Shown piece by piece: positions 7,529 to 62,799 of a DNA stretch of 64,000 nt. The stretch is taken from the NCBI GenBank assembly GCA_005222965.1, contig NJBG01000001.1, positions 896,167 through 960,166 of the forward strand, written 5' to 3'. A program made the translations under genes and the position numbers. The stretch comes from Candidatus Woesearchaeota archaeon B3_Woes (GTDB lineage Archaea > Nanobdellota > Nanobdellia > Woesearchaeales > B3-WOES). Every line of letters starts with the position of its first letter. Positions within the stretch are counted from its first letter, which is position 1. The notes beneath the pieces were generated by a model. The model had not been told where the DNA came from and did no database searches. It saw only the letters and a program-made list of their open reading frames with translations.

Positions 7529-7573
7529 ATCCAAAGCTTTTTAAACAGTTTTCATATTCTCTGTTAAGTTAAA

Positions 7574-8002: not shown

Positions 8003-8003
8003 A

Positions 8004-9230
8004 ATGTTTAATAGTTTAAAAGAAAAATTAAAGAAAGCAATTTCTAGATTTTCTAAAAAAGTTGATGAAATAGAAGAACCTGTAGAAGAAGTTAAAGAAA
8101 AGCCAAAGCCAGTTGAGAAAAAACCTATTCAAAAACCTAAAAAAGAGAAAAAAGAAAAAGCAATTAAAAAAAAGAAAGAAGAAGTAAAAGAAGAAAAGCC
8201 AAAACCTGTTATTGAAAAACCGAAAGAAGAACCAATTGTTGAAGAACCTAAAAAAGAGAAAAAATCATTCTTTGGATTTAAGAAAAAGAAAGAAAAACCA
8301 ATCGAAGAAAAGAAAGAAGAACCAATTATTGAAGAACCTAAAGAAGAAAAACCTGTTGAAGAAGAAAAAAAAGGAATCTTCAAAAAAATAACAACAAAGA
8401 AAATAGATCAAGAACAATTTGAAAAATTATTCTGGGAACTGGAATTGGCTCTAATGGAAAATAATGTTGCTATAGAAATCATAGATAAAATTAAACAAGA
8501 TCTAAAACAAAATCTTGTTGATAAACCTCTAACAAGAACAAAAATAGATGAAACAATTAAAAATACTCTGAAAAATTCTATAAAAGAAATATTAGAAGTC
8601 GATAAAATAAATTTACTTGAAAAAATAAAAGAAAAAAAACCCTATGTAATCTGTTTTGTTGGTATAAATGGTTCTGGTAAAACAACAACAATCGCAAGAA
8701 TAGCACATCTTTTACAAAAAAATAATATAAGCAGTGTAATGGCTGCTTCAGATACATTCAGAGCAGCAGCAATCGACCAAATACAACATCACGCAGATAA
8801 ATTAAATGTCAAATTAATTAAACAAGATTATGGATCAGACCCAGCAGCAGTCGCTTTTGATGCAATTAAACATGCAGAATCAAAAAACATAGATGTTGTT
8901 CTAATTGATACAGCAGGAAGAATGCATTCTAATGCTAATTTACTGGATGAAATGAAGAAAATAATTAGAGTTGCAAAACCAGATATGAAAATTTTTGTTG
9001 GAGAATCAATAACAGGGAATGATTGTACTGAACAAGCTAAAAAATTCAACCAAGCAATTGAAATTGATGGAATCATACTAACCAAAGCAGATGTTGATGA
9101 AAAAGGAGGGGCTGCATTATCTGTTAGTTATATAACCAAAAAACCAATCTTGTACATAGGAACAGGCCAAGGATACAATGATTTAAAAGAATTCTCTTCA
9201 GACACTATTCTAGATAATCTAGGACTTTAA
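8004..9230 (+). CDS. ftsY: signal recognition particle receptor FtsY
   Basis: N-terminus MFNSLKEKLKKAI, a Lys/Glu-rich acidic linker, and the SRP GTPase motifs GINGSGKTTT, DTAGR and TKADVDEKGG. The ATG at 8004 sits right after the prefoldin stop. Confidence 0.85.
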   Translation: MFNSLKEKLKKAISRFSKKVDEIEEPVEEVKEKPKPVEKKPIQKPKKEKKEKAIKKKKEEVKEEKPKPVIEKPKEEPIVEEPKKEKKSFFGFKKKKEKPIEEKKEEPIIEEPKEEKPVEEEKKGIFKKITTKKIDQEQFEKLFWELELALMENNVAIEIIDKIKQDLKQNLVDKPLTRTKIDETIKNTLKNSIKEILEVDKINLLEKIKEKKPYVICFVGINGSGKTTTIARIAHLLQKNNISSVMAASDTFRAAAIDQIQHHADKLNVKLIKQDYGSDPAAVAFDAIKHAESKNIDVVLIDTAGRMHSNANLLDEMKKIIRVAKPDMKIFVGESITGNDCTEQAKKFNQAIEIDGIILTKADVDEKGGAALSVSYITKKPILYIGTGQGYNDLKEFSSDTILDNLGL

Positions 9231-16121: not shown

Positions 16122-18851
16122 TTATCTAAGAGCTCCTAGAACTTCTCCTAGCTTATCAAAATTAGTGCCAAATCCAATCCAATCCTGTTTATTCATAGAA
16201 TCAAGTATCTGATCATAATAAATTGAAGCTTCTTTAATCAAATCCTTTTGAGATACACCTTCTACAACAACCTTTTTACTAACTGCTTTGCCAAACAAGG
16301 CTTCTAAGGCCAGATCAAAACTCTCTTCCATTACAACTCTTTCACCATCCGAAACTAAAATTCTTTTAAGTTGAGGAAGTTGTCCTTGCTCTGATTGTAT
16401 ATACAAAGGCTCAATATATAGAAGACTATTATCAATTGGAATTACAAGTAAATTCCCTCTTGTAACTTGCGAACCCTGCTGTGACCACAAGGTAATTTGC
16501 TGGGATATCTCAGAATCCTGATCAAACTTAGCTTCTATCTGTAAAGGACCATAAATTAACTTATCTTTTGGAAATTTATACAATATCAACTTGCCATAAT
16601 TTGAACCATCTGAACGTGCAGCCATCCATGCAACCATATTATCTTTTTTAATTGGAGTAAAAGTAGTCATTAAAACAAATTCTTCTTCAGTTTCACCAGG
16701 CAATTTCATTATAATATAATAAGGATCTACTTTTACCTGCTGACCAACACCATAAATCTCATGAGGAATCTGCCATGCATCTTCTTTATTATAGAAAACA
16801 GATATATCATCCATATGATATGTATTATAAATACTTGATTGTATTCTAAACAAATCCTCTGGATATCTTATATGTTTCTTAAGATCCAAAGGCATTGAAT
16901 CAATCAATCTAAACTGTTTTGGGAATATCTTAGCATATGTAATAATTAAAGGATCCGAAGTATCAATAATATAATATGTAATATCCCCATTATATGCATC
17001 AACAACTATTTTCACAGAATTACGTATGTAATTTATAGAACTCTGCTTCTCTGAATAAGGGAAATTTCCAGATAGAGTATATCCATCTACAATCCAAACC
17101 AAACTTCCATTATGCAGAACCAAATAAGGATCATCATCCAACCCTATAAATGGAGTAATCTTAGAAATTCTTTCTATTATGTTTCTTCTGAACATAATTT
17201 TACTGTCAGATGTTATATCAGATGATAAAAGAAGTTTAACATCTTTGAATTTAAAAGCCATTAGGAATTTTTTCATAGTAGAATCTAACCCAACTCCTCC
17301 TCCACCATCATAATTTATGTACTCATTAGTATTCCCTTTTGGATAATCAAATTCATTGGCTTTAGTATTTACTAAAACAAAACCATTATACTTTTCTCCA
17401 TAATATATCTGCGGTTTATCAATTTTTATATTTAAATCATCAACAGTATAGATGGGGGGAATATCTTTTATAAAGAAATTAGGCAAACCCTCCTTTGTTA
17501 CTGAATTTACAGGACTCATTACAACTCCAAATCCATGAGTATAAACCATGTGAATATTAACCCAGGTCTTGGCATTCTGTATAATCTGATTTTGATCTAA
17601 TTCCCTAGGTGCTAGCATAACTTGTGTATACTTTCCATTAATATCATACCTATCAATATCAATTCCAGAAAGGTCATAGTATAATCTTATTTCCTGAGTT
17701 TGTTTATAGGTTTTTACTAATGGCCTCCAATCCAAAATCCTTACATTATCAATTGTTTTAGAAGCCTTAGATAATTTATCAGAAGTTAAATCCATCTCAA
17801 CAGAAAAATCCTTTTCTTCAACATCAGATAATCCATAAGCCATTCTAGTAAATTTAATATTGTTTTCAATATACGGCCTTTCTAAATTTATTTCATTTGG
17901 TGTAACAATAAAAGACTGTACTAATCCAGGAATTATTGTTGGACCAACAAATCCAAATATAAGATAGATCAAAACAACATAACCAAGTATATGTCTTTTC
18001 TTAAGCTGTTTTGAGAAAAACAACATCCAACCAACAAAAACTAATGCAACAACTATTGCCAAGATCATTAAAATCCTAATAATTGGAAGATAAGCAACAA
18101 CATCTGCATAACCTGCTCCTACAACAATGCCTTGTTTAGAATACATAACTGAAAATAATGTAAGATAATGCTTAATAGCAAGTAAAATAAAAATTAAACA
18201 ACCCAAAACAGTTAAATGAATAGTTGAGTTTGCTTTGAATTTTGATAAAACATCTTTGAAATCAAATGAAGGAGAAGAAGGTACTGGTGCTTCAAAATCA
18301 TGTTTCCCATCTGTCTGCCTAAAATTTATTGGTTTAGTTCCTAAAATAAATGATTGTAAGTAATCAAACAAAACCAAAAGGGTTGTAATCATAACACAAG
18401 CCATAACAAATAACCACAATACTGAAAAAAATGGAAGTGAAAAAATATAAAAAGAGACATCTTTCAAAAATATAGGATCCTTTATTGCAAAAGGAACCTG
18501 ATTAAGATACTGCAGTAACAAAAACCACTGTGAAGAAACAGTTATACCAACAAAAAAAGATAGGATACTAACAATCTTTAATTTAGTCTTAAAAGAAATA
18601 ATTTTCTTCTTAGCTTCACTAAATTTCGAAGATATCCATAAATTAAATAGAGCAAAGAAAAAAAACACAAAACCACCAACAAAAAACAAAAATACTTTTG
18701 ATTTAAGACTTATTAAAAAAATAGAAGAAAAACCCAACATATCAAACCACAAATAATCAGTCAAAAGACCAACCAAACCACTGATAAATAAAAAGAACAG
18801 GATTAATACTGTAATTACAACATTTAACACCCAATTTTTTTTATTAGCCAC
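16122..18851 (-). CDS. UPF0182-family large membrane protein
   Basis: 909 aa. N-terminal block of about 7 TM helices followed by a large soluble domain, the architecture and size of the UPF0182/COG1615 family. Confidence 0.55.
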   Translation of the reverse strand: MANKKNWVLNVVITVLILFFLFISGLVGLLTDYLWFDMLGFSSIFLISLKSKVFLFFVGGFVFFFFALFNLWISSKFSEAKKKIISFKTKLKIVSILSFFVGITVSSQWFLLLQYLNQVPFAIKDPIFLKDVSFYIFSLPFFSVLWLFVMACVMITTLLVLFDYLQSFILGTKPINFRQTDGKHDFEAPVPSSPSFDFKDVLSKFKANSTIHLTVLGCLIFILLAIKHYLTLFSVMYSKQGIVVGAGYADVVAYLPIIRILMILAIVVALVFVGWMLFFSKQLKKRHILGYVVLIYLIFGFVGPTIIPGLVQSFIVTPNEINLERPYIENNIKFTRMAYGLSDVEEKDFSVEMDLTSDKLSKASKTIDNVRILDWRPLVKTYKQTQEIRLYYDLSGIDIDRYDINGKYTQVMLAPRELDQNQIIQNAKTWVNIHMVYTHGFGVVMSPVNSVTKEGLPNFFIKDIPPIYTVDDLNIKIDKPQIYYGEKYNGFVLVNTKANEFDYPKGNTNEYINYDGGGGVGLDSTMKKFLMAFKFKDVKLLLSSDITSDSKIMFRRNIIERISKITPFIGLDDDPYLVLHNGSLVWIVDGYTLSGNFPYSEKQSSINYIRNSVKIVVDAYNGDITYYIIDTSDPLIITYAKIFPKQFRLIDSMPLDLKKHIRYPEDLFRIQSSIYNTYHMDDISVFYNKEDAWQIPHEIYGVGQQVKVDPYYIIMKLPGETEEEFVLMTTFTPIKKDNMVAWMAARSDGSNYGKLILYKFPKDKLIYGPLQIEAKFDQDSEISQQITLWSQQGSQVTRGNLLVIPIDNSLLYIEPLYIQSEQGQLPQLKRILVSDGERVVMEESFDLALEALFGKAVSKKVVVEGVSQKDLIKEASIYYDQILDSMNKQDWIGFGTNFDKLGEVLGALR

Positions 18852-20457: not shown

Positions 20458-21018
20458 TTATTCTAAACTTAAGAAATCCATTGTTGGTTTATATCCTTCT
20501 TGCAACCAATATCTTGATCTATCTAACATTATATCTGATTCATCTTTATACTGTTGTTTAACACCATCAACCAACAGACGTAGAAACTGATTAAAATTAT
20601 TAGCTACAACCATAGTCTCTCTTGAATCATGAGCTGTATTTAAAACACGTCCTTGCATAATTAGATATTCTGAATTAACATCAATCGTAATTGGATCACC
20701 ATTATCAGATGCTATCTCAACAACATCATCACAACCCTCAATCTCTTTTCCACTTTCTGGATTTGTATCATATAATAAGAGATGTTCTTCCAGTTCACTT
20801 ATACTATGAAAATATATATCTGAAATCTCAGCTCCATTTGAAAATCTTAAAAAAGCTAGATAATCATCTGATATTTCACTCCCTTTTACGGCATATTCCC
20901 TCTTAAGAGATTCTATTTCTTCTTCGCTTGCACCAGTATTAAATTTAATATCTTCTCTTTCTGTTTCAAGTTTTCGAAGCTCTGAAAAAATATCATCAAT
21001 TGAACTATTTTTTACCAT
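20458..21018 (-). CDS. hypothetical acidic protein
   Basis: 186-aa acidic ORF with no recognised motif. Confidence 0.35.
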   Translation of the reverse strand: MVKNSSIDDIFSELRKLETEREDIKFNTGASEEEIESLKREYAVKGSEISDDYLAFLRFSNGAEISDIYFHSISELEEHLLLYDTNPESGKEIEGCDDVVEIASDNGDPITIDVNSEYLIMQGRVLNTAHDSRETMVVANNFNQFLRLLVDGVKQQYKDESDIMLDRSRYWLQEGYKPTMDFLSLE

Positions 21019-21142
21019 GTTATTAAGTATAAAAAGACTAATATATAAATCTTTCGTTTTGTTATTACTTATTAGTAGATATTAAATTTATAAAAACGAA
21101 AAAACAATAAATTTAAATATCCAATAATTAATAAAGAACTAT

Positions 21143-21532
21143 ATGGGTATATTCAACATTGTCAAAAAAAAGAGGCCTTTAGAAGAAACAGAAGATTTTG
21201 AAAGAGATATTCATTCTATAGTAGACTTCTTAGCTCATGTAGGAAGAGACGTAAAAGATCTTTACGAACTAGTCGCTAAAGTAAAAAAAGCAAGAGCAAA
21301 AGAAAGATCAGAAGTTGATGGCAAAAAACAAATCAAACTGTTAGAAGAAGAAATAAAGGCATGGGACAAATTCCTTGAAATGTTTGTTATGTTTGATAGA
21401 GACATAGACATAACAGGCGAAAGAGTAAAAAAGATTTCTCAAATTCTAAAAGAAGAAGCAAAAACAATGAAAATAGACCAAGACTTACTAAAAAAAATCA
21501 ACAAAAAAAGAGAATGGGTCTTTAATTGGTAA
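21143..21532 (+). CDS. hypothetical coiled-coil protein
   Basis: 129-aa ORF, Lys/Glu-rich helical. Confidence 0.35.
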   Translation: MGIFNIVKKKRPLEETEDFERDIHSIVDFLAHVGRDVKDLYELVAKVKKARAKERSEVDGKKQIKLLEEEIKAWDKFLEMFVMFDRDIDITGERVKKISQILKEEAKTMKIDQDLLKKINKKREWVFNW

Positions 21533-21569
21533 CCAATAATCTTTTATACTTCTAAACTACTCCCTCATC

Positions 21570-23489
21570 ATGGAAACAAAAGTACCTGCACTAAAAAAAT
21601 TCCTAGAGGAAGTTAAAAGTTATAATCCAAAAGCAGACTTTAAAATAATTGAAAAAGCATTCAATCTATCAAAAAAAGCCCACAAAGGCCAAAAAAGAGC
21701 ATCAGGCAAACCCTACTTCTCTCATCCAATTGCAGTTGGAAGAACACTAATGGATCTTAATGTAGATTCTGCCACAATATGCGCATCTCTTTTACATGAT
21801 GTTATAGAAGATACAAAAATAACATATGAACAACTATCAAAAGAATTCAATAAAGAAATAGCAAATATTGTTGATGGCTTAACTCATATAGAAAAGATAA
21901 AATTTCAAAGCAGGGAAGAATATACTAATAAAAATATAAGAAAAGTTTTGCTAGCATCATCTAAAGATATTAGAATAATCTTAATCAAGTTAGCAGACAG
22001 GCTCCACAACATGCAAACCCTAAAATACATAAATCAAGGGAATCAAAAAAGGATAGCTAGAATAACTTTAGATATATTTGCACCGATTGCTGAAAAATTA
22101 GGATTATGGACTATTAAAGGAGAATTAGAAGACCTTTCATTAAAATTCCTAGAACCAAAAACATACGAATCTCTTAAAAAGAAGATTGGTGAAAAAAGAA
22201 CAAAAAGAGAACAACAAACAATAGAGATTGTTAACCTAATCCAAAAAGAACTTGAACACAACCATATAAAAGCAAAAACATTTGGAAGAGCAAAATATTT
22301 CTACAGCATCTACAAAAAGATGACGAAAAAGGATAAGAGATTTGATGAAATATTCGATTTAATTGGTATCAGAATAATTACTTCTAATGAAAGAGAGTGT
22401 TACGCAGCATTAAATTTAGTGCATAATCTATGGCCTCACAAAAAAACACAACTCAAAGATTATATAAAATACCCAAAAGACAACGGCTATCAATCAATGC
22501 ACACAACCGTCTATGGTCCTTATAATAAAGTACTGGAAATCCAGATAAGAGATCTTAAAATGCATTATGAAGCAGAAGGAGGTATTGCTGCTCATTGGAG
22601 ATATGCTGGAACAGAAAGAGACAAAGAATTTGACAGGCGTATCCAATGGTTTAAACAAGCAATAGAATGGAGAAGGTTTTCAAAAAACGCAAAAGAGTTT
22701 ATAGAAAACCTTAAAATGGATTTTTATGAAAACGAAATAATAATATTAACACCAAAAGGAGATCCTATTCCATTAAAAGAAGGCTCAACACCTTTGGATT
22801 TTGCTTACGAACTTCACACTTCAATCGGAAATCATTGTTCTGCAGCTATTGTAAATGGAAAAGCAGTTCCATTAGACTATAAATTAAAGAGCGGCCAAGT
22901 AGTTAACATAATAACCAAAGAAAAAGCCCACCCCTCTAGCTCATGGCTTAATATTGTCCAGACAAATCGTGCAAAATCCAAAATAAGAAGTTCTCTTGGA
23001 CTTACAATGAAGAGAAGCAAAATCACAATACCCTCTTTTGAAGAATCAAGCATAGCTCATAAATTACAGCTTAAAGATCCAACAATAAAAGCCAAAATAA
23101 AAATTGCAAGGTGCTGTAATCCTAGACTAAACGACCCTGTGATGGGTTACAAATACAACCACAACATAATAATTGTACACAATATAGAATGTCCTCAGAT
23201 GTCTGTTTTTGATAAAACAAAAAGAGTAAATGTTTTTTGGAAAATTAAGGAAACAGAAATAGATTCTAACACATTTAGAATAAAAGTTACTGACAGGGTT
23301 GGATTATTATCAGAAATACTTAATCTTTTCTCACAATATGGTCTTAAATTAGAATCTGTAACAACAAAAATATCCAAGAAAAGAGTTTTTTTTATAATTA
23401 AGATAAAGAAAATAAATCCAAAAACTTCAAAAGAAATCTTCACAAGACTTAAAACAATACCAAATGTCTTAGATATCTTCTTTGTCTAG
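21570..23489 (+). CDS. long RelA/SpoT homolog (HD hydrolase + (p)ppGpp synthetase + TGS + ACT)
   Basis: HD motif (SHPIAVG...LLHDVIEDT). Synthetase motifs (FGRAKYFYSIYKKM, DLIGIRIITS, YQSMHTTV). TGS region (IILTPKGDPIPLKEGSTPLDFAYELHT). C-terminal ACT-like segment. 639 aa. The last 73 bp of the gene are duplicated at 27301..27376. Confidence 0.85.
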   Translation: METKVPALKKFLEEVKSYNPKADFKIIEKAFNLSKKAHKGQKRASGKPYFSHPIAVGRTLMDLNVDSATICASLLHDVIEDTKITYEQLSKEFNKEIANIVDGLTHIEKIKFQSREEYTNKNIRKVLLASSKDIRIILIKLADRLHNMQTLKYINQGNQKRIARITLDIFAPIAEKLGLWTIKGELEDLSLKFLEPKTYESLKKKIGEKRTKREQQTIEIVNLIQKELEHNHIKAKTFGRAKYFYSIYKKMTKKDKRFDEIFDLIGIRIITSNERECYAALNLVHNLWPHKKTQLKDYIKYPKDNGYQSMHTTVYGPYNKVLEIQIRDLKMHYEAEGGIAAHWRYAGTERDKEFDRRIQWFKQAIEWRRFSKNAKEFIENLKMDFYENEIIILTPKGDPIPLKEGSTPLDFAYELHTSIGNHCSAAIVNGKAVPLDYKLKSGQVVNIITKEKAHPSSSWLNIVQTNRAKSKIRSSLGLTMKRSKITIPSFEESSIAHKLQLKDPTIKAKIKIARCCNPRLNDPVMGYKYNHNIIIVHNIECPQMSVFDKTKRVNVFWKIKETEIDSNTFRIKVTDRVGLLSEILNLFSQYGLKLESVTTKISKKRVFFIIKIKKINPKTSKEIFTRLKTIPNVLDIFFV

Positions 23490-23492
23490 TTT
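23417..23492. repeat. 76-bp direct repeat, left copy (covers the 3' end and stop codon of the RSH gene)
   Basis: tccaaaaacttcaaaagaaatcttcacaagacttaaaacaataccaaatgtcttagatatcttctttgtctagttt. Identical to 27301..27376 apart from one A/G mismatch. Confidence 0.85.
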
Positions 23493-23618
23493 TATCATTA
23501 TATTCAATAATATAACCTTTAACACATTCTTTCCCGAATAATTCTATGTAGAGATGTTGTGTTGATTTAATTTTTCATCAACTTCTTCATATTTATTCAC
23601 AACTCAGTTTTTTGCCTT

Positions 23619-24953
23619 TTAAATACTAAAGTACAAACTTGTTTTCGCTATTCCTGTTTTGATTAATGCATCGTATAGTTTCTGATGTTCTATGTCTCCT
23701 ATCTGTGTTGCTATCTCTAATGCTTTTTCGTATTTCATTTCTTCCTGAAATGCAGTCATTGCTTGTGGTAAGTATTTGTCTTCTCCGGTTATTTCTAGTG
23801 CTTGAAGAAGAAATTCACCCTTATTTCTGTCAGGTTTCGTTTGCCTTTTTTCTTTAGATACGACTACATCAACCGCTTCGATAACTTTACTTTTGTACCC
23901 ATTGCTAATTAACTTTTCAGCATCTGTTAAGAAACGCTCAGCAAGTGAGTCAGTATACTTCATAAAAATACGTTCTGACAAATGTGTTGCAGAAATTATA
24001 AGTTCATACAAGCTATTTTGTACATCATCTTTTTTCCTTTCCTCTACTGTCTGCACATCTATTTCTAACTCTAAATGCTTAAGACAGTGTATCTTATCAT
24101 AACTGCTTACATCATTGTTTACATTGTCTATTCCTTCTTGTGCTATTTTATTAGCATATTCTGGATGAATATTTTTAGCAAAGAAAATTGCCTTGGTATA
24201 AGGGTTAGTATATTGGCCGTCGTTGATTATTTCTTGTGTGTGTTTAATAACTTTTTTTTCAACCCATTTTCTGTTTGTTGGATTTGTTTTGATTCCTATT
24301 AGAGCCTCTCTCAAGTGTGCTAAATAAGACTGCCTTTTTGTTGGTTCTGCTATGAGAGATTCGTAAATTTCTTTGAATAAAGTTACTGCTTTTTTATCTG
24401 CATTTATTCTTTTGTATCCTTGTGCAACTGTGCTGAGAGAAGCTCTAAAAATTTGTCTTTCATCTTGTGCATCGATTTCGTTTGATAAAGATAAAGTGTT
24501 TGCTTTTTCTTTGATGTTTTTAACAACCTTATCAATTGTGTCTTCAGAAGTTGTCCCTCGAAGAACTTTTTCAAAATCATGATCAAACCCATTGATGACT
24601 GTGTTGGAAATGTATGTGTACATTTCTTCAGCACGTTTAGGGTCAATGTTCATTATCCGATCCGCTTCTATTTCCGCAAATGTTAAATATTCTCTTTTTG
24701 GATTCTCATCTTCAATCATAAGATCAATTATTTCTGAGAACTCAGAGTCTTGCTGGAAGCCTTGTACGTCCATAGATACAGAACTTGTTGTGTGCTTCGT
24801 TATTATTTCTCCTGCAAATGCTATCAGAAATCTTTCTCTTTCAGACATATAACCCCACCCTCCACAATCTAGGTTGTGTTGTGTGTTGTCTAATTGTGCT
24901 GTTATTTCTGCTAATGTTAATGTTTGTTCTTCTTGTGTTTGATTTGTTTCCAT
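23619..24953 (-). CDS. alpha-helical repeat protein of unknown function (island paralog A)
   Basis: 444 aa. Its N-terminal 23 aa (METNQTQEEQTLTLAEITAQLDN) and 5' leader are near-identical at the DNA level to those of 24977..26209. Confidence 0.5.
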   Translation of the reverse strand: METNQTQEEQTLTLAEITAQLDNTQHNLDCGGWGYMSERERFLIAFAGEIITKHTTSSVSMDVQGFQQDSEFSEIIDLMIEDENPKREYLTFAEIEADRIMNIDPKRAEEMYTYISNTVINGFDHDFEKVLRGTTSEDTIDKVVKNIKEKANTLSLSNEIDAQDERQIFRASLSTVAQGYKRINADKKAVTLFKEIYESLIAEPTKRQSYLAHLREALIGIKTNPTNRKWVEKKVIKHTQEIINDGQYTNPYTKAIFFAKNIHPEYANKIAQEGIDNVNNDVSSYDKIHCLKHLELEIDVQTVEERKKDDVQNSLYELIISATHLSERIFMKYTDSLAERFLTDAEKLISNGYKSKVIEAVDVVVSKEKRQTKPDRNKGEFLLQALEITGEDKYLPQAMTAFQEEMKYEKALEIATQIGDIEHQKLYDALIKTGIAKTSLYFSI

Positions 24954-24976
24954 TTTTTATTCACTTTCCATGTTTA

Positions 24977-26209
24977 TTACTCTAGCTTCAAGTACGCATC
25001 TATTGACCTGAATATCTGTTTTTGTTTTTTATTTCCAGCTTCTGTTGCAAGTATTGTTAATTCGTCATATTGACCATGTCTTTTGAAAGCGGATATTGCT
25101 TTGTCAAGGTAGTTCTCTCCTCCTAGCAATCTATGTACTTGAAGAAAACGTTCTCCTTCTTGTTCGCTAATCTCTGATTGTTTCATTTCTTCTTTATAGG
25201 TAATCGCTTCAGTGATAGCGTTTTCTGCTTCTTCAGCAAATCCTTTTTCTACTAGTTTTTCAATTGCATACCAGAAAGATAACTCTTTCGATGCATCTCC
25301 TCCCGCAGCGTATTCTTCATCTAAAAACGCGAAAGAGACATCTTCTTTAACTGTTGTCCGGTAATCATCAAGTCTTTGTTTTTCAACATGATTTTTTGTT
25401 TGCTCATCAGGTTCCATGTCAAGTATTTTGTATAGAGTGTGTTTTTCAGAATAGTTATTAGAATTTCTTATTCCTTCTTTGGCCATAGTTCTGGCAAGTT
25501 GTTGATCATATCCTTTAGCAGCATTAAACGCTTGTAAATATTCTTTATTCTCAAAATGTTCATTAGCTTTTGCTATTGCTAATATTTTCAATTTTTCGTT
25601 TGCTTTTTTCGTGCTTGTTCCATTAGCATTTAACTTTACTATTCTTAATAGATCGTCTGTTTCTTCATATAATTCGACTGCTTTTCTTGGATTGCCTAGT
25701 TTGTTATATTTGCTGGCTGCAGAACGAAGTATTTTAGTAAATTGTTCTTCCCCTAGCATTTGTTCTTTATCTCTTGCAATGCTAAGCGCTTGTTCGAGTA
25801 TTCTTTCAGATTTAGTGGACAAAATTACATTGTCTAGATAATTCAATTCTTCGCCTGTGCTTTCTGAGATTTTATCAAGCATAAACTTATACATCTCGCT
25901 TACTCGTTCAGGATTGTGTTTCTCTGACTCATATGCTTCAACGTGTGCAACTTCTAGATGGTGCCTGCTTATTCCTTTTTCATGTAGGATAAAATTTATA
26001 AGTGAACTTTTCTCATCTTCAGATAATCTTCCTCTTTTATCATGAAGATTAATTAAGAAACTTTCCTTTTCAGTTAAGTCTTCAACAGTCTGATAATGTG
26101 ACCTAAGAGTTTTTAGAGGTGCTTGAAAACCTCTTGTTTCATTATCTAGTTGTGCTACTATTTCTTTTAGTGTTAATGTTTGTTCTTCTTGTGTTTGATT
26201 TGTTTTCAT
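24977..26209 (-). CDS. alpha-helical repeat protein of unknown function (island paralog B)
   Basis: 410 aa. Shares the N-terminus MKTNQTQEEQTLTLKEIVAQLDN and the upstream ttttttattcac leader with paralog A. The C-terminal regions are only distantly similar. Confidence 0.5.
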   Translation of the reverse strand: MKTNQTQEEQTLTLKEIVAQLDNETRGFQAPLKTLRSHYQTVEDLTEKESFLINLHDKRGRLSEDEKSSLINFILHEKGISRHHLEVAHVEAYESEKHNPERVSEMYKFMLDKISESTGEELNYLDNVILSTKSERILEQALSIARDKEQMLGEEQFTKILRSAASKYNKLGNPRKAVELYEETDDLLRIVKLNANGTSTKKANEKLKILAIAKANEHFENKEYLQAFNAAKGYDQQLARTMAKEGIRNSNNYSEKHTLYKILDMEPDEQTKNHVEKQRLDDYRTTVKEDVSFAFLDEEYAAGGDASKELSFWYAIEKLVEKGFAEEAENAITEAITYKEEMKQSEISEQEGERFLQVHRLLGGENYLDKAISAFKRHGQYDELTILATEAGNKKQKQIFRSIDAYLKLE

Positions 26210-26340
26210 TTTTTATTCACCTTTTAATTTTTATTTACTTATTAGTAGTTAAAGTATTTCAACAATTATATAAAACTTTTCATTGATTTTTTTACTATTT
26301 AACCACAAAGTATATAAATACAACCAGATTAGTAGATATT

Positions 26341-27300
26341 ATGCTTATAAAACTAGATAAGAAAGATCGAAGAATACTCTACCATCTAGATTTAAACAGC
26401 AGGCAGACCTACAACCAGATAGCAAAGAAAGTAGGACTCAGTAGAGAAGTCATACAATATAGGATAAAGCAACTAGAAAAAAGAGGCGTAATCAGAGGCT
26501 ACCAGACACTAATTGATGTCACTAAGCTTGGCTATCTTAATTGCAGATTCTTCATAAAGTTCCAGAGAGATTCTCCTGAGCAGGAAAAAGAAATAATAGA
26601 GTACTACAAGCAACATCCAAATTTCTGGTGGGTTGACAGCATCGATGGATTCAGGGATCTAGGAATTGCCTGCTGGGTAAAAAACATCTACGAGTTCCAT
26701 GATATAAAAGAAGATTTAGTCAAAAGATTTGGAAACTTCATTCATGATTTTAACATGGCAATCTACTCGAAGTTTTATATCTACAAAAGAACTTATTTGC
26801 TGGATGATAAAATAGAACTTCCTCCTGTAAAAACAATGTTCTCGCAGGAAAAGGCAAAGTTTGACGATAAGGATATCGAACTCTTAAGATTAATAGCTCC
26901 AAATGCAAGAATGAGTTCAGTAGATCTTTCACAACAAACAGGAATAAGTGTTACAAACATCAACTACAGAATAAAGAAGTTGATTGAAAGGAAAATAATA
27001 GTTGAGTTCAGAGTGATAATTGATCTAAAGAAAATAGGTTATTACTGGTATAAGATAGAGTTCCAACTGGAAGACTTAAACATAAAAAAAGGATTGTTAG
27101 AATACTCTCACAAACACAAAAACATTATCTACGCGTATGAAACAATAAGCGAAAACGACATAGAAATAGAGCTTGAAGTGCAGAGTTATGAAGAGTTCAG
27201 AGAGATACTTGATGATATCAGAAAAACATTCGGCAAAGACATAAAGAAATATCATCACTTATTATGGTATAAGGAGCACAAGTTCCTGTTTATGCCATAA
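26341..27300 (+). CDS. tandem (duplicated) Lrp/AsnC-family transcriptional regulator
   Basis: Two successive HTH_AsnC-like segments (DRRILYHLDLNSRQTYNQIAKKVGLSREVIQYRIKQLEKRGVI and DIELLRLIAPNARMSSVDLSQQTGISVTNINYRIKKLIERKII). Each is followed by a RAM-like beta-alpha-beta domain. Confidence 0.7.
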   Translation: MLIKLDKKDRRILYHLDLNSRQTYNQIAKKVGLSREVIQYRIKQLEKRGVIRGYQTLIDVTKLGYLNCRFFIKFQRDSPEQEKEIIEYYKQHPNFWWVDSIDGFRDLGIACWVKNIYEFHDIKEDLVKRFGNFIHDFNMAIYSKFYIYKRTYLLDDKIELPPVKTMFSQEKAKFDDKDIELLRLIAPNARMSSVDLSQQTGISVTNINYRIKKLIERKIIVEFRVIIDLKKIGYYWYKIEFQLEDLNIKKGLLEYSHKHKNIIYAYETISENDIEIELEVQSYEEFREILDDIRKTFGKDIKKYHHLLWYKEHKFLFMP

Positions 27301-27376
27301 TCCAAAAACTTCAAAAGAAATCTTCACAAGACTTAAAGCAATACCAAATGTCTTAGATATCTTCTTTGTCTAGTTT
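27301..27376. repeat. 76-bp direct repeat, right copy (duplicated RSH 3' end)
   Basis: Single mismatch to 23417..23492. Contains an in-frame copy of the RSH C-terminal codons and stop, with no upstream gene body. Confidence 0.85.
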
Positions 27377-27421
27377 ATAAAAACATTTAAATACATTCTT
27401 CTACAGTAGTAGACTAGTAAA

Positions 27422-30073
27422 ATGCCTGATTACCATACTAAATCAATTGAAGAAACTCTGAAAAACCTGGAAACAAAAGATAAAGGGCTGACTCAGGAAG
27501 AAGCAAACAAAAGATTGATTAGATATGGCCCTAATGAAATAAAAGACACAGAACAAATATCTCCATTAAATATATTTATTTCACAATTCAAAAGCTTTCT
27601 TGTAGCAATCTTATTCATAGCTGTTATAGTTTCATTAATAATAGACCATAAGATTGATGCATTTGTAATAGCAATCATTCTTATCCTAAATGCCATCTTG
27701 GGCTTTGTTCAGGAATATAAAGCAGAAAAATCTATTCAAGCATTAAAAAAACTAGCTTCACAACAGTCAGTAGTACTAAGAGATGGAAAAGAAAAAAAGA
27801 TTAATTCAACAGAACTAGTTCCAGGAGATATCATTATTCTGGAAACAGGAGAAAAGATTCCTGCAGACTCAAGATTAATAGAATCTATAAATCTACACAC
27901 CCAGGAAGCAAGCTTAACAGGAGAATCAACACCAGTAACAAAAGACATAAAAACCTTAAATAAAAAATCACCAGTAGCAGACAGAAAAAACATAGTTTTC
28001 TCAGGAACAATCATAACTGCCGGAAGAGGAAAAGCAGCTGTAATCAGAACAGGAATGGATACTGAAATTGGCAAGATAGCCAAGATGATCCAAAAACAAA
28101 CAACAAAACTAACACCCTTGCAAATAAAATTAAAAAAATTAGGAGAACTACTTGGATTAGCAACAATAATAATCTGCTTTTTAGTTTTCTTCACAGGAAT
28201 CCTAGCGGGAATAGATACAATAACAATGTTCATAACAGCAATATCACTGGCAGTTGCAGCAATTCCAGAAGGATTGCCAGCAGTTGTAACAATTTCTTTG
28301 GCATTAGGAACCCAAAGAATGGTAAAAAGAAACGCACTAATCAGAAAACTGCCTTCTGTTGAAACACTTGGAAGCACCACTGTAATCTGTACTGATAAAA
28401 CAGGAACTCTTACATTAAATCAAATGACTGTTAGAAAACTTTTCATAAACGACAAAACAATTACAGTTACAGGGAGAGGATATGAATCAAAAGGAGAATT
28501 CTACCATAATAAAGAAAAGATTAACATAAAAGAAATTGAATTACTCTTAACAGCAGGAACTCTATGCAACAACGCAAAATTTGTAAACAGAGATATTATA
28601 GGAGATCCAACAGAGGGAAGCTTGGTTGTTAGTGCTGCAAAAGCAGAACTTCTAAAAGAAAAACTTGAAGAACAATACCCAAGAATAGATGAAATAGAAT
28701 TTACATCTGAAAGAAAAAGAATGAGCACACTACACAACATTAAAGGCACAAAAACAATTTATTCTAAAGGCGCTCCAGATGTTTTACTTAATTACTGCAA
28801 TAGGGTATACAAAAATGGAAAAATAAAAAAATTAACACAAGAAGAAAAAGAAAAAATTCTACAAATCAATGAAACATTTGCAAAACAAGCCTTAAGAGTT
28901 TTAGGATTTGCATTCAAACCATCAAACAAACTCGAAGAAAAAAACTTAATATTTATTGGATTACAAGCAATGATTGATCCGCCAAGAGAAGAAGTAAAAA
29001 CAGCAATAGAAAAATGCAAGCAGGCAGGAATAAAGGTTGTAATGATTACAGGAGATTTTAAAGTAACAGCAGAAGCAATTGGCCGTGAGTTAGGAATAAC
29101 AGGCCAGGCAATTGATGGAGCAGAACTAGACAACATCCAAAACCTAAAAGAACACGTTGAAAATATATCTATCTATGCAAGGGTTAATCCATCACACAAA
29201 GTAAAAATTCTTGAAGCTCTAAAAGAAAACAAACATATTGTTGCAATGACTGGAGATGGTGTTAATGATGCTCCTGCAATAAAAAAAGCAGATATAGGAA
29301 TATCAATGGGTATTACTGGAACAGATGTTGCAAAAGAAGCCTCTGATATGATTCTAATTGATGATAATTTTGCTTCAATTGTAAATGCAGTTGAAGAAGG
29401 AAGAGGAATTTATGACAACATAAAGAAATTTGTCCAATACCTCTTATCATCAAATATAGGAGAGATTCTAACAATCTTTGTAGCATTAATCATGGCACCA
29501 TTCTTTGCAAATGCCCTACCTCTAATTGCTCTACAAATCTTATGGATTAACTTAGTTACAGATGGACTACCAGCTCTAGCTCTGGGTGTTGATCCTACTG
29601 AACCACATATCATGAGAAAAAAACCAAGAAACCCAAAAGAAAATATAATCAATAAATCAAGAGCAATAAAAATGATTTTTATAGGTATCATAATGATGGT
29701 AGGTACTCTAGGAATATTTAAAATATACAATCCAAACATAAATTTAGTATATGCACAAACAATAGCATTTACAACCTTAGTCATGTTCCAAATGTTTAAC
29801 GTCTTAAACCTAAGATCAGATCAACATTCCTTATTCAAAATTGGTATTTTCTCAAATATGAAACTAATTATAGCAATTATAATATCAATAGCTCTGCAAT
29901 TACTGGTTGTCTATTCACCATTTATGCAAAACCTATTTAGTACAACAACACTATATCTAAAAGATTGGATATACATACTACTTGTTTCATCATCTGTTTT
30001 AATATTTGGAGAAATCATAAAAATATTTAATAAATTAATAAAAAAAAGAAAAAGAATAAGTCCAATACCTTAA
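27422..30073 (+). CDS. P-type Ca2+-transporting ATPase (P2-type, SERCA/PMCA-like)
   Basis: DKTGTLT phosphorylation motif, TGES, KGAPD, and the MITGDFKVTAEAIGRELGI/TGDGVNDAPAIKKADIGISMG hinge. About 10 TM helices. 883 aa. Confidence 0.85.
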   Translation: MPDYHTKSIEETLKNLETKDKGLTQEEANKRLIRYGPNEIKDTEQISPLNIFISQFKSFLVAILFIAVIVSLIIDHKIDAFVIAIILILNAILGFVQEYKAEKSIQALKKLASQQSVVLRDGKEKKINSTELVPGDIIILETGEKIPADSRLIESINLHTQEASLTGESTPVTKDIKTLNKKSPVADRKNIVFSGTIITAGRGKAAVIRTGMDTEIGKIAKMIQKQTTKLTPLQIKLKKLGELLGLATIIICFLVFFTGILAGIDTITMFITAISLAVAAIPEGLPAVVTISLALGTQRMVKRNALIRKLPSVETLGSTTVICTDKTGTLTLNQMTVRKLFINDKTITVTGRGYESKGEFYHNKEKINIKEIELLLTAGTLCNNAKFVNRDIIGDPTEGSLVVSAAKAELLKEKLEEQYPRIDEIEFTSERKRMSTLHNIKGTKTIYSKGAPDVLLNYCNRVYKNGKIKKLTQEEKEKILQINETFAKQALRVLGFAFKPSNKLEEKNLIFIGLQAMIDPPREEVKTAIEKCKQAGIKVVMITGDFKVTAEAIGRELGITGQAIDGAELDNIQNLKEHVENISIYARVNPSHKVKILEALKENKHIVAMTGDGVNDAPAIKKADIGISMGITGTDVAKEASDMILIDDNFASIVNAVEEGRGIYDNIKKFVQYLLSSNIGEILTIFVALIMAPFFANALPLIALQILWINLVTDGLPALALGVDPTEPHIMRKKPRNPKENIINKSRAIKMIFIGIIMMVGTLGIFKIYNPNINLVYAQTIAFTTLVMFQMFNVLNLRSDQHSLFKIGIFSNMKLIIAIIISIALQLLVVYSPFMQNLFSTTTLYLKDWIYILLVSSSVLIFGEIIKIFNKLIKKRKRISPIP

Positions 30074-30074
30074 A

Positions 30075-31229
30075 CTACTGCTTTAGGACATCAACCTTAT
30101 CTGTTTTTTCCCATGTAAAGTCAGGATCTTCTCTTCCAAAATGACCATATGAAGCTGTTTTTCTGTATATTGGTCTTCTTAAGTCAAGCTGTTCTATTAT
30201 ATCCTTTGGTTTTAATGGAAAATGTTTTTTTATTAATTCAACTATTTTTTCTTCTGGTATCTTGTTTGTTCCAAAAGTATCCACAAAAACACCAGTAGGT
30301 TCTGCCACTCCAATTGCATATGCCAGCTCAACTTCACATCTGTCAGCTAATCCTGCAGCAACAAGATTCTTAGCAATATATCTTGCAGCATAAGTAGCAG
30401 ATCTATCTACTTTTGAAGGATCTTTTCCAGAAAAACACCCACCACCATGTCTTCCCATACCACCATAAGTATCTACAATTATCTTTCTCCCTGTAACTCC
30501 TGTATCTCCTTCTGGTCCGCCTACAACAAACTTTCCTGTTGCATTTATATGGACTTTTGTATTTTCATCAAAATAATCCCCGCAAACAGGTTTAATTACT
30601 TTCTCAAGAATTTCCTTTTTTAATTCATCTTCTGAAATAATCTCTAAATGTTGTTGAGCAATAACAACTGCTTCAACTCTTTTTGGCTTTCCATCTTCAT
30701 ATTCAACAGTAACCTGAGATTTGCCATCAGGTCCTAGATCTTTTATTTCGCCATTTTTTCTTACGTCTGCTAGTTTTCTTGTTAATTTATGAGCCAAACT
30801 TATTGGCAATGGCATTAATTCCTCTGTTTCATTACACGCATAACCAAACATCATTCCCTGGTCTCCTGCGCCTTGTTCTCCAGATGCTCCCTGACCTTCT
30901 GTAACTCCTATAGATATATCAGGTGATTGCTCATGAATAGCAACCCAAACACCAGCATCCTCATAATCAATTCCAAAATCTGGATTAGTATAACCTATAT
31001 CTTTTAACACCTCTCTGACAACCTTTTGAACATCTGCAAAACCTTTTGTTGTTACTTCACCTGCAACATGCACAGATCCAGTTGTTGTTAAACACTCAAT
31101 AGCAACTCTTGATTGAGGGTCTTGTTTATACAATTCATCTAAAATCCCATCAGAAATTTGATCACATACTTTATCTGGATGACCTTCTGTTACTGATTCA
31201 GATGTAAATAAAAAATTTTTTTGTTCCAT
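30075..31229 (-). CDS. metK: S-adenosylmethionine synthetase, bacterial/eukaryotic type
   Basis: [21 protein letters not shown]-terminus, the [12 protein letters not shown] motif, and [17 protein letters not shown]. This is not the archaeal-type MAT family. Confidence 0.9.
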
Positions 31230-33791: not shown

Positions 33792-33912
33792 GCTCCTATA
33801 GTGTAGCCCGGTCAATCACTCTGCCTTTTCGTGTTGGCAATCAAAGATTCCCAAAATTTTTTGATTCCACCAAAAAAAGGCAGGAACAGGGGTTCGAATC
33901 CCCTTAGGAGCA
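33792..33912 (+). tRNA. tRNA-Glu (anticodon TTC) with 46-nt intron at 37/38
   Basis: Exons give acceptor GCTCCTA/TAGGAGC, anticodon arm CTGCC-TTTTCGA-GGCAG and T-arm AGGGG-TTCGAAT-CCCCT. The intron is tgttggcaat...ccaccaaaaaa, located between loop positions 37 and 38. Confidence 0.75.
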
Positions 33913-36603: not shown

Positions 36604-36873
36604 GGTGCAAAGAAAATAGCTAAAAGTAAGTTTATAGGAAAAGTAAAGATAACCACACAAGGCCAACTAACTTTGCCTTTAGAAGCAAGAAAAGAACTAG
36701 GAATTGACTTAGGAGATGAAGTTTATTGGTACGAAATAGATGGAGTTCTCGTTGTTACAAAAGAATTACTTAGTCAAAAAGATCTAGATAAAACACTAAG
36801 AAATTCCGTAGGAATTTCTGGTGCCAAGAAAATTTCTTCAAAATTTTCTAGGGAAATAAGAGGTAGTAAATAA
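36604..36873 (+). CDS. AbrB/MazE-like SpoVT_AbrB (swapped-hairpin) DNA-binding protein
   Basis: KFIGKVKITTQGQLTLPLEARKELGI matches the AbrB N-domain consensus. The open frame begins at 36604 but has no canonical ATG upstream of TTG 36673, so the start is uncertain. Confidence 0.45.
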   Translation, partial: GAKKIAKSKFIGKVKITTQGQLTLPLEARKELGIDLGDEVYWYEIDGVLVVTKELLSQKDLDKTLRNSVGISGAKKISSKFSREIRGSK

Positions 36874-41481: not shown

Positions 41482-41536
41482 ACAATGAAAATCAATGAAA
41501 ATAAAATTTTCAAGATTTCCATTTTAATAAACTAAA

Positions 41537-44425: not shown

Positions 44426-44445
44426 ATAAAAAAGAGGTGAGTATA

Positions 44446-45381: not shown

Positions 45382-45391
45382 AAGAGGTAGA

Positions 45392-60891: not shown

Positions 60892-62799
<1,908 letters not shown>

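What the first reader, a model, noticed from the sequence alone, without database searches (positions are those of the whole stretch)
21570..23489. Full-length bifunctional-type RelA/SpoT homolog in an apparently archaeal genome
The protein carries HD hydrolase, synthetase, TGS and ACT regions, the complete long-RSH architecture. The surrounding genes are unmistakably archaeal. Long RSH enzymes are characteristic of bacteria and plastids and are rare in archaea, so this is probably a horizontally acquired alarmone system. The gene's 3' end serves as the insertion site described above.
Basis: partly seen in the sequence, partly recalled or inferred. Interest (0 to 1): 0.55.

Follow-up and report, generated by a model that had tools for sequence, protein, structure and literature searches.

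The report
Woesearchaeal Rel-type ppGpp enzyme gene
This is an intact bacterial-style alarmone (ppGpp) synthetase/hydrolase gene in a DPANN archaeon (Woesearchaeota B3_Woes); it is real and not an assembly artefact, but this gene family in these archaea, and its bacterial origin, are already published.

Summary
The ORF at 21570-23489 (+, 639 aa) is confirmed. It carries HD, RelA_SpoT, TGS, zinc-finger/RIS and ACT domains and scores above the curated RelA/SpoT cutoff. All hydrolase and synthetase catalytic residues are present and invariant in 120 archaeal homologues. dN/dS against the closest relative is 0.10.

The window comes from a 1.0-Mb contig of Ca. Woesearchaeota archaeon B3_Woes, where the gene is deposited as a "hypothetical protein". 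Chimerism is excluded: composition is host-like, and the same neighbours are linked to RSH in independent assemblies that also carry S8e, S17e, Alba and eIF2-gamma.

The archaeal proteins form one clade (100/100 bootstrap) nested among bacterial Rel. This points to an old transfer, not a recent one.

"Rare in archaea" holds only outside DPANN. A 2021 paper reports RelA/SpoT of predicted bacterial origin in 41.7% of Woesearchaeota. "Complete architecture" is nearly right: the alpha-helical domain between TGS and zinc finger is cut from 103-124 residues to about 43 across the family.

The insertion remark is correct. A 78-nt direct repeat brackets 3.9 kb, and the closest relative shows the empty site. 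No integrase is present.

The finding is known biology with modest added detail.

The parts
21570..23489 (+). Long RSH (Rel-type) gene, 639 aa; deposited as TKJ17843.1 'hypothetical protein CEE44_04965'
   Evidence: ORF. Pfam and NCBIfam hits. Exact look-up. dN/dS 0.10 against L029.
21657..22109 (+). HD (p)ppGpp hydrolase domain, residues 30-180. R43, H52, H76-D77, E80-D81, D143 and N147 are all present.
   Evidence: Pfam HD_4. The listed residues are invariant in 120 archaeal homologues, except D81, which is D in 86 of 120 and E in 28. dN/dS 0.08.
22284..22610 (+). (p)ppGpp synthetase domain, residues 239-347. G239, R240, K242, S246, K250, D263, R268, K296-D297, K303, Y307, H311, E323, Q325 and R327 are present. 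The RXKD motif reads QLKD (294-297).
   Evidence: Pfam RelA_SpoT. Residue table. Invariant columns. dN/dS 0.055.
22737..22916 (+). TGS domain, residues 390-449, with invariant H416. This residue aligns with the His of B. subtilis Rel 'YRIHSEIGN', which to my recollection is the tRNA-CCA-sensing H420, equivalent to E. coli RelA H432.
   Evidence: Pfam TGS. PDB alignment. Invariance.
22950..23099 (+). Truncated alpha-helical (AH) linker, residues ~461-510. It has two short helices (466-476, 489-496) and a disordered stretch (483-488).
   Evidence: Alignment gap against bacterial proteins. Linker is 43 residues against 103-124. AF2 secondary structure and pLDDT. M. smegmatis Rel residues 547-661 correspond to query 476-510.
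23100..23249 (+). Zinc-finger / ribosome-intersubunit (ZFD/RIS) domain, residues 511-560, with C515, C516, H537 and C541
   Evidence: Precomputed PF28438 RelA_RIS on homologues. Conservation. Alignment to M. smegmatis Rel 661-791.
23265..23486 (+). ACT/RRM domain, residues 566-638
   Evidence: Pfam ACT and ACT_4. AF2 beta-alpha-beta-beta-alpha-beta elements. dN/dS 0.23.
21143..21532 (+). 129-aa coiled-coil protein of unknown function, 37 nt upstream of RSH and probably co-transcribed. The same adjacency occurs in the closest relative, L029.
   Evidence: ORF. L029 gene order. 60% identical orthologue in L025.
23415..23492 (+). Proximal copy of the 78-nt direct repeat (attL-like). It covers the last 25 codons of RSH, the stop codon and 3 further nt.
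   Evidence: the repeat finder family D1. Sequence.
23493..27298 (.). Inserted segment absent from relative L029. It holds two near-ORFan paralogues (23619-24953 and 24977-26209, both on the - strand) and a double-wHTH Lrp/AsnC-like regulator (26341-27300, +). No recombinase gene is present.
   Evidence: Empty site. Pfam and PHROGs. ORFan status. The wHTH protein is widely conserved in DPANN.
27299..27376 (+). Distal copy of the 78-nt repeat (attR-like), 77/78 identical to the proximal copy. It is followed by the native RSH downstream flank (27377-27422).
   Evidence: Its single difference (G, encoding Ala) is the state found in the closest homologues.

Best explanation
The gene encodes a functional Rel-type bifunctional long RSH of the DPANN archaeon Ca. 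Woesearchaeota B3_Woes.

Shown here:
- It belongs to a large monophyletic clade of ~640-aa archaeal RSHs that branches among bacterial Rel/SpoT.
- Both active sites and the TGS, zinc-finger and ACT domains are conserved and under purifying selection.
- The gene has host-like composition and sits in a native archaeal chromosome.
- The alpha-helical domain is truncated in every member of the clade examined.

Inferred from established knowledge of bacterial Rel:
- The SYN domain transfers pyrophosphate from ATP to GDP/GTP to make (p)ppGpp.
- The HD domain hydrolyses (p)ppGpp back, using Mn2+.
- The C-terminal region switches between the two activities.

The invariant TGS histidine and zinc-finger ligands make sensing of uncharged tRNA, probably on the archaeal ribosome, the most likely trigger. 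The short AH linker may be an adaptation to that ribosome. Downstream targets are unknown; conserved GTPases and purine-salvage enzymes are the obvious candidates.

The bacterial ancestor gene entered an early Woese-/Nanoarchaeal lineage and has been inherited vertically since. Later, 3.9 kb of DNA recombined into the gene's last 78 nt without disrupting it.

Confidence by step: family membership and archaeal residence ~0.95; both activities retained ~0.7; tRNA/ribosome-dependent control ~0.4.
For: Domains and curated cutoff. Catalytic and sensor residues are invariant in 120 homologues. AF2 model and Foldseek matches to RelA, Rel and SpoT. 45% identity to B. subtilis Rel over the NTD+TGS, with gap-free catalytic motifs. 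dN/dS is 0.10 overall and 0.055-0.30 per domain. The archaeal clade has 100/100 NJ bootstrap support. Relatives' genes are flanked by LSM, S8e, S17e, Alba, eIF2-gamma and archaeal ProRS. The 129-aa and M29 neighbours are shared with L025 and L029. A single 1.0-Mb Woesearchaeota contig holds the gene. GC3 is 0.23 against 0.15-0.21 in host genes. PMC8407392 independently reports the family and its bacterial origin.
Against: [quoted passage not shown] The AH domain, which in bacterial RelA/Rel spans between TGS and the zinc finger on the ribosome, is mostly missing, so bacterial-style ribosome docking is not assured. The first residue of the RXKD motif is Q here and in P0001, whereas it is R in 96 of 120 homologues; the effect is unknown. 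The tree uses only 13 bacterial references and NJ, so the donor is unresolved and the single-transfer inference is provisional. The closest bacterial sequence, a Bacillota MAG, is 50.5% identical.
Confidence: 0.75

Rival explanations
1. The enzyme is SpoT-like and ribosome-independent. It is bifunctional, but its C-terminal domains serve only for auto-inhibition or for binding a metabolite or protein ligand (for example amino acids at the ACT/RRM domain). Loss of the AH domain would then reflect loss of ribosome docking after transfer into an archaeon.
For: The AH truncation is family-wide. The AF2 model superposes best on the compact full-length SpoT structure 7QPR, with TM 0.53 against 0.42 for ribosome-bound RelA. 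Archaeal ribosomes lack some bacterial contact partners (own knowledge). Elusimicrobial RSHs have lost everything after TGS, which shows the CTD is evolutionarily dispensable in some lineages.
Against: The TGS histidine needed for tRNA-CCA recognition and all four zinc-finger ligands are invariant in 120 proteins. TGS and ZFD have low dN/dS, 0.07 and 0.09, as expected if the tRNA/ribosome contacts are still used. AF2 tends to predict compact apo states in any case.
Confidence: 0.3
2. The enzyme is monofunctional or a pseudo-enzyme. Only one of the two activities, or neither, survives in the archaeal host, despite conserved motifs.
For: The RXKD motif is altered to QLKD in this protein and in P0001. 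[quoted passage not shown] Motif conservation is necessary but not sufficient for activity.
Against: Every catalytic residue of both sites is present and invariant. The HD and SYN domains have the lowest dN/dS in the protein, 0.08 and 0.055. A hydrolase alone would have no substrate in a cell that makes no alarmone.
Confidence: 0.1
3. The gene is bacterial DNA wrongly joined to an archaeal contig, through a chimeric assembly or binning error.
For: The nearest characterised homologues are bacterial. The window holds several other bacterial-type genes: MetK, GyrB, an RluF-like synthase and UPF0182.
Against: GC is a uniform ~0.30 and GC3 is host-like. The gene lies 20-40 kb inside a 1.0-Mb contig with archaeal markers. 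Orthologues of RSH and of its neighbours (129-aa protein, M29 peptidase) are linked in independent assemblies from ENA, JGI and Logan, next to S8e, S17e, Alba and eIF2-gamma. The archaeal clade is distinct from all sampled bacteria.
Confidence: 0.02

Closest known systems
DPANN RelA/SpoT homologues already in the literature and GenBank. Examples are 'GTP pyrophosphokinase [archaeon GW2011_AR15]' AJF61895.1 (= P0107) and the survey in PMC8407392.
   Same: Same clade, same ~640-aa architecture and 47-51% identity. The bacterial origin is already inferred in print.
   Different: This particular protein is deposited as 'hypothetical protein'. The published work reports presence/absence and LGT only. 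In the papers I could read I found no description of the AH truncation, no residue-level analysis and no biochemistry.
Bacterial bifunctional Rel (B. subtilis Rel 6YXA, S. aureus Rel 7OIW, S. equisimilis Rel 1VJ7, M. smegmatis Rel 8FR8)
   Same: HD, SYN, TGS, ZFD and ACT are in the same order. Identity is 43-45% over NTD+TGS. All catalytic residues are present, with a K-D (bifunctional-type) rather than D-D (RelA-type) motif.
   Different: About 65-80 residues of the alpha-helical domain are missing. The host is an archaeon with an archaeal ribosome. The first motif residue is Q instead of R.
E. coli RelA and SpoT
   Same: Same superfamily and overall fold.
   Different: Scores fall below both equivalog cutoffs: SpoT 488.7 against 947, RelA 376.5 against 728. 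Identity is 34% to RelA and 41% to SpoT. Judging from the alignment, RelA only aligns from residue 59 on, which is consistent with its degenerate HD domain, whereas the HD domain here is intact.
Genomic islands and integrative elements that target the 3' end of a conserved gene and regenerate it (classically tRNA genes)
   Same: A 78-nt, 77/78-identical direct repeat includes the gene's 3' end and stop codon. The gene stays intact. A relative carries the empty site.
   Different: There is no integrase or recombinase gene and no viral or plasmid homologues. One of the three cargo genes is a conserved chromosomal DPANN regulator.

Membership tests
Long RSH (RelA/SpoT family, TIGR00691) | Whole-protein score above the curated family cutoff | tested here: met
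   633.8 bits against a cutoff of 499.2
Long RSH, bifunctional Rel type | HD hydrolase domain with catalytic R, H, HD, ED, D and N residues | tested here: met
   R43, H52, H76, D77, E80, D81, D143 and N147 are present. All are invariant in 120 homologues except D81, which is D or E in 114 of 120.
Long RSH, bifunctional Rel type | Synthetase domain with catalytic G-R-x-K, D264, Y308, H312, E323 and Q325 equivalents | tested here: met
   G239, R240, K242, D263, Y307, H311, E323 and Q325 are all present and invariant.
Long RSH, bifunctional Rel type | Basic RXKD motif (bifunctional) rather than acidic EXDD (RelA) | tested here: inconclusive
   The query has QLKD. K and D are invariant in the clade, and the first residue is R in 96 of 120. 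Two Anaerolineales references have EFDD.
Long RSH | TGS domain with the conserved histidine used for tRNA 3'-CCA recognition | tested here: met
   Pfam TGS, E 5e-21. H416 is invariant and aligns with the B. subtilis Rel His in 'YRIHSEIGN'.
Long RSH | Alpha-helical (AH) domain between TGS and ZFD/RIS | tested here: not met
   43 residues between the I472 and C516 anchors, against 103-124 in six bacterial proteins; the range in 120 archaeal proteins is 36-55. Only two short helices appear in the AF2 model.
Long RSH | Zinc-finger / RIS domain with Cys and His ligands | tested here: met
   C515 (119 of 120), and C516, H537 and C541 invariant. PF28438 RelA_RIS is recorded on homologues.
Long RSH | C-terminal ACT/RRM domain | tested here: met
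   Pfam ACT 29.8 bits and ACT_4 27.6 bits, both just above the cutoff of 27. Beta-alpha-beta-beta-alpha-beta fold in the AF2 model.
Long RSH | (p)ppGpp synthesis and hydrolysis activity; activation by ribosome plus deacylated tRNA | not testable with these tools
   Requires enzyme assays. No archaeal (p)ppGpp has been reported.
Proteobacterial SpoT (NF008303) / RelA (NF008124) equivalogs | Score above the equivalog cutoff | tested here: not met
   488.7 against 947, and 376.5 against 728
Horizontally acquired gene of bacterial origin | The archaeal sequences are nested within bacterial diversity, and the family is absent from most other archaea | tested here: inconclusive
   The archaeal clade is monophyletic (100/100) and branches among 13 bacterial references, but this is NJ with sparse sampling and an arbitrary root. 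The literature agrees.
Site-specific integrative element | Flanking direct repeats that include the target gene's 3' end, and an empty site in a relative | tested here: met
   78-nt repeat, 77/78 identical. L029 runs from the RSH stop straight into the post-attR flank.
Site-specific integrative element | An element-encoded integrase or recombinase | tested here: not met
   No Pfam or PHROG recombinase hit in any ORF of 30 aa or more. The cargo consists of ORFans plus a wHTH regulator.

The most novel reading that the evidence does not exclude
DPANN archaea run a true stringent response. In this reading, the AH-truncated Rel docks on the archaeal ribosome, reads uncharged tRNA through its invariant TGS histidine and zinc finger, and makes (p)ppGpp. 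That would overturn the current review-level view that (p)ppGpp plays no role in archaea. The shortened linker would be the adaptation that made a bacterial ribosome sensor work on an archaeal ribosome. A secondary possibility is that the RSH 3' end is the attachment site of an integrase-less DPANN mobile element carrying ORFan genes.
Probability: 0.3. Interest if true: 0.7.

Novelty: new member of a known kind. Interest (0 to 1): 0.35.

Why it matters
Reviews of archaeal second messengers as late as 2023 still state that (p)ppGpp has not been described in archaea and that the enzymes are rare. Genome surveys, in contrast, show a conserved, selected, catalytically intact long RSH in a large fraction of DPANN archaea.

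This gene is a clean, full-length, well-contextualised representative. It could be synthesised and assayed to test directly whether any archaeon makes the alarmone, and whether a bacterial ribosome-dependent sensor can work with an archaeal ribosome. The family-wide loss of the AH domain gives a specific structural hypothesis to test.

As a genome-scan finding, however, it re-discovers something already published and already annotated in many sister genomes.

Tried and rejected
- **Exact look-up of the RSH product in the contig index** found nothing, and the same was true for P0128. That genome is not in the index. The protein is in the protein collection but was mis-clustered under a 48-aa representative, which is why the homology search topped out at 84%.
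- **The genome-contig scan** used query-specific peptide patterns. It caught only bacterial RSHs (Elusimicrobia, Bacillota, Anaerolineales, Ignavibacteria) and no Woesearchaeota. These served as an outgroup, not as evidence on taxonomy.
- **Chimerism or contamination** was considered and rejected (see rival 4).
- **Recent HGT** was rejected on host-like GC3, low dN/dS and clade-wide distribution.
- **The cargo as a virus or plasmid** found no support. The two ORFans have no PHROG hits, there is no related viral contig, and the att core has no match in IMG/VR. A profile search of 1.84 billion representatives gave one distant 253-aa hit in an ordinary chromosomal context.
- **The idea that wHTH plus an ORFan-like gene form a conserved module** was rejected. 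The 253-aa gene next to wHTH in L033 is unrelated to P0151.
- **The idea that wHTH was simply displaced from beside ScpA** stays unresolved. ScpA is orthologous to the L034 gene, the other neighbour is not, and L033 shows a third context.
- **Two sources could not be retrieved**: Rinke et al. 2013, which to my recollection first noted SpoT/(p)ppGpp genes in DPANN single-cell genomes, and the supplementary tables of the PNAS 2020 RSH classification.
- **A first bootstrap run timed out** and was redone with a faster distance routine.
Full report
**Observation**

The window has one uninterrupted ORF at exactly 21570..23489 on the + strand, 639 aa. Pfam finds four domains:
- HD_4 at residues 30-180, E 1e-43
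- RelA_SpoT at 239-347, E 1e-38
- TGS at 390-449, E 5e-21
- ACT/ACT_4 at 568-636

NCBIfam's RelA/SpoT subfamily model TIGR00691 scores 633.8 bits against a curated cutoff of 499.2. The proteobacterial SpoT and RelA equivalog models fall far below their cutoffs. An AlphaFold2 model built on 121 family sequences is confident (mean pLDDT 89.5, pTM 0.84). Its best Foldseek matches in the PDB are ribosome-bound RelA (5IQR), B. subtilis Rel (6YXA) and full-length SpoT (7QPR).

**Organism**

Pfam annotation of the neighbours was at first not clearly archaeal. Three features then settled the question:
- ribosomal protein S3ae at 62856-63596 (E 2e-43)
- a tRNA with a ~49-nt insertion in the anticodon loop at 33792-33912
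- a type III RuBisCO

Exact look-ups gave the final answer. Nine of ten tested window proteins, from 18.9 kb to 63.6 kb, are entries of 'Candidatus Woesearchaeota archaeon B3_Woes', all on one 1,000,545-bp contig. The RSH itself is TKJ17843.1, deposited as 'hypothetical protein CEE44_04965'.

**Is the assembly chimeric?**

No, on four grounds:
- GC content is uniform at about 0.30.
- The RSH's GC3 (0.23) sits with the host genes (0.15-0.21).
- In independent assemblies from JGI, ENA and Logan, RSH orthologues of 69-74% identity lie beside LSM, ribosomal S8e and S17e, Alba and archaeal-type ProRS, with eIF2-gamma and an S-layer protein also present on the L025/L026 contigs.
- The two genes that flank RSH in the window have orthologues within ~5 kb of RSH in L025: the 129-aa coiled-coil protein (60% identity) and the M29 peptidase (73%). 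The closest relative, L029, has the same 129aa-RSH adjacency.

**Is it an enzyme or a relic?**

I aligned the protein with 120 archaeal homologues and with bacterial references.

- Hydrolase residues R43, H52, H76-D77, E80, D143 and N147 are invariant across the archaeal set; D81 is D in 86 of 120 homologues and E in 28.
- Synthetase residues G239, R240, K242, S246, K250, D263, R268, K296-D297, K303, Y307, H311, E323, Q325 and R327 are likewise invariant.
- The charge motif that separates bifunctional Rel (RXKD) from RelA (EXDD) reads QLKD here. K and D are invariant in the clade. The first residue is R in 96 of 120 proteins and is Q only here and in P0001.
- TGS His416 is invariant. It aligns with the His in B. 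subtilis Rel 'YRIHSEIGN'; to my recollection this is the residue that reads the tRNA 3'-CCA end.
- Zinc-finger ligands C516, H537 and C541 are invariant, and C515 is present in 119 of 120.

Nei-Gojobori dN/dS against the closest relative's DNA (L029, 84% amino-acid identity) is 0.10 overall:

| Region | dN/dS |
|---|---|
| HD | 0.08 |
| SYN | 0.055 |
| TGS | 0.07 |
| ZFD | 0.09 |
| Linker | 0.30 |
| ACT | 0.23 |

The gene is under purifying selection throughout.

**A difference from canonical long RSHs**

The whole archaeal family is short, with a median length of 641 aa. The alignment places the missing residues between TGS and the zinc-finger/RIS domain. Between the conserved anchors I472 and C516 there are:
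- 43 residues in this protein
- 36-55 residues in all 120 archaeal proteins
- 103-124 residues in E. coli RelA, E. coli SpoT and four full-length bacterial MAG proteins

In the M. smegmatis Rel alignment, query 476-510 corresponds to chain residues 547-661. The AF2 model shows only two short helices and a disordered stretch there. I did not find this described in the papers I could read.

**Evolution**

I built a neighbour-joining tree on 451 columns (NTD+TGS). It included 39 archaeal homologues and the query, and 13 bacterial references: E. coli RelA and SpoT, three PDB Rel sequences, and eight MAG proteins.

- All archaeal sequences fall in one clade with 100/100 bootstrap support.
- The query falls in a sub-clade with P0001-P0012, also 100/100.
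- The closest bacterial sequence is a Bacillota MAG at 50.5% identity.
- The mean identity to the other archaeal proteins (P0013 and beyond) is 56.8%.

This fits an old bacterium-to-archaeon transfer followed by vertical descent. Bacterial sampling is sparse and the donor is unresolved.

**What is already known**

- In 2011 the RSH classification stated that archaea lack long RSHs (PMC3153485).
- Many clade members are annotated in GenBank as bifunctional (p)ppGpp synthetase/hydrolase. One is 'GTP pyrophosphokinase [archaeon GW2011_AR15]'.
- From memory, and not verifiable here, Rinke et al. 2013 already noted SpoT-like genes in DPANN single-cell genomes.

The finding therefore re-discovers a published distribution pattern. 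What remains open is function.

**Mechanism**

This part is inferred by homology with bacterial Rel; nothing here was assayed.
- The SYN domain makes (p)ppGpp from ATP and GDP/GTP.
- The HD domain degrades it.
- The C-terminal domains set the balance between the two activities.

Strict conservation of the TGS histidine and the zinc finger makes uncharged-tRNA sensing, probably on the ribosome, the most likely input. I put that at ~0.4. The main rival is a SpoT-like, ribosome-independent regulator (~0.3), for which the AH loss is the main argument.

**The insertion remark**

The repeat finder shows a 78-nt direct repeat. One copy is at 23415-23492: the last 25 codons of RSH, the TAG stop and 3 further nt. 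The other copy is at 27299-27376. They are 77/78 identical.

The closest relative's contig, L029, aligns to the window from 21100 to 23492. Its post-stop flank then continues at 27377-27422, beyond the distal copy, with no similarity to 23493-27298. That is an empty site, so the 3.9 kb in between is a true insertion.

The single repeat difference encodes Thr in the copy attached to the gene and Ala in the distal copy. Ala is the state in the closest homologues. This fits a crossover 5' of that position, with the incoming DNA supplying the last ~13 codons.

The insert carries three genes:
- Two paralogues of 444 and 410 aa. They are 26% identical by BLASTP (30% in the MAFFT alignment) and share 12 of their first 13 residues. 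They are near-ORFans: the only other hit among 1.84 billion representatives has E 1e-12.
- A double-wHTH Lrp/AsnC-type regulator. This is a widely conserved DPANN chromosomal gene, 60-77% identical in many genomes, found in varying contexts. Its GC3 here is atypical at 0.40.

There is no recombinase gene and no viral homologue. Whether this is a decayed integrative element or a DNA circle that recombined through the 78-nt homology cannot be decided with these data.

**Verdict**

The gene is real, intact, archaeal-resident and under selection. It overstates the rarity in this lineage, understates the age of the transfer, and misses the truncated AH domain. Novelty is low, since the family and its origin are published. 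Interest is moderate, because the gene is a good experimental handle on the still-open question of whether any archaeon uses (p)ppGpp.

Noticed in passing
window 23415-23492 and 27299-27376; insert 23493-27298: A 78-nt direct repeat, 77/78 identical, brackets a 3.9-kb insertion at the RSH 3' end. The empty site is seen in relative L029. No integrase is present. The one SNP suggests the incoming DNA supplied the last ~13 codons.
   Followed up: yes
window 23619-24953 (-) and 24977-26209 (-): Two tandem paralogues of 444 and 410 aa (26% identical by BLASTP) share 12 of their first 13 residues (MxTNQTQEEQTLTL) and an 82-nt, 89%-identical DNA stretch over their 5' ends (24886-24967 against 26142-26223). 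They have no Pfam or PHROG hits and are near-ORFans among 1.84 billion representatives. The conserved 5' ends hint at gene conversion or a shared leader or regulatory element.
   Followed up: partly
window 26341-27300 (+): This double-wHTH (2x HTH_24) Lrp/AsnC-like regulator is conserved at 60-77% identity across Woese-, Pace- and Micrarchaeota. Its GC3 is 0.40 against 0.15-0.25 for the other window genes. In relative L034 its orthologue sits directly upstream of ScpA-prefoldin-FtsY, a trio that lies at 6758-9230 in the window without it.
   Followed up: partly
window 21069-21084 and 26326-26341: A shared motif, TTATTAGTAGATATTA (0 and 2 mismatches), sits next to TATA-like TTATAAAA in two divergent promoter regions: SUKH/129aa-RSH and ORFan/wHTH. 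These are the only two matches in the window, and 4 of 100 shuffles reach two. It may be a common regulator site, but the evidence is weak.
   Followed up: partly
window 33792-33912 (+): Rfam finds a tRNA with a ~49-nt insertion in the anticodon-loop region, presumably an archaeal intron. ARAGORN missed it.
   Followed up: partly
window 30075-31229 (-), 60904-62799 (+), 58201-58878 (+), 16122-18851 (-): This Woesearchaeal chromosome carries several other bacterial-type genes: bacterial/eukaryotic-type S-adenosylmethionine synthetase, DNA gyrase B, an RsuA/RluF-family pseudouridine synthase and UPF0182. This fits the heavy cross-domain gene transfer reported for DPANN.
   Followed up: no
window 20458-21018 (-): A SUKH-1 (SMI1/KNR4) family protein lies two genes upstream of RSH. 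This family is usually an immunity protein of polymorphic toxin systems. No toxin gene was seen nearby.
   Followed up: no
window 36873-47888 (+): A long same-strand cluster of BatA/VWA, VWA-GATase1-like, DUF7502, MoxR AAA+ (AAA_3) and DUF58 genes forms a Bat/MoxR-VWA-type module.
   Followed up: no
protein collection, cluster of TKJ17843.1: The 639-aa RSH is clustered under a 48-aa representative, with 36-48-aa fragments named 'zinc transport system substrate-binding protein'. This is a database clustering artefact that hid the exact match from the homology search.
   Followed up: yes
L002, L007, L013, L015, L020 (Elusimicrobia) and L014, L019 (Anaerolineales): Elusimicrobial RSHs end right after TGS, at ~480-505 aa, with no AH, ZFD or ACT. 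The two Anaerolineales RSHs carry the RelA-type EFDD motif.
   Followed up: partly
L023, L025, L030 against the window and L029: In more distant relatives RSH sits between Alba and ProRS, and the 129aa-M29 pair lies 3-5 kb downstream. In B3_Woes and L029 RSH directly follows the 129-aa gene. So a rearrangement moved RSH in the ancestor of this sub-lineage.
   Followed up: partly
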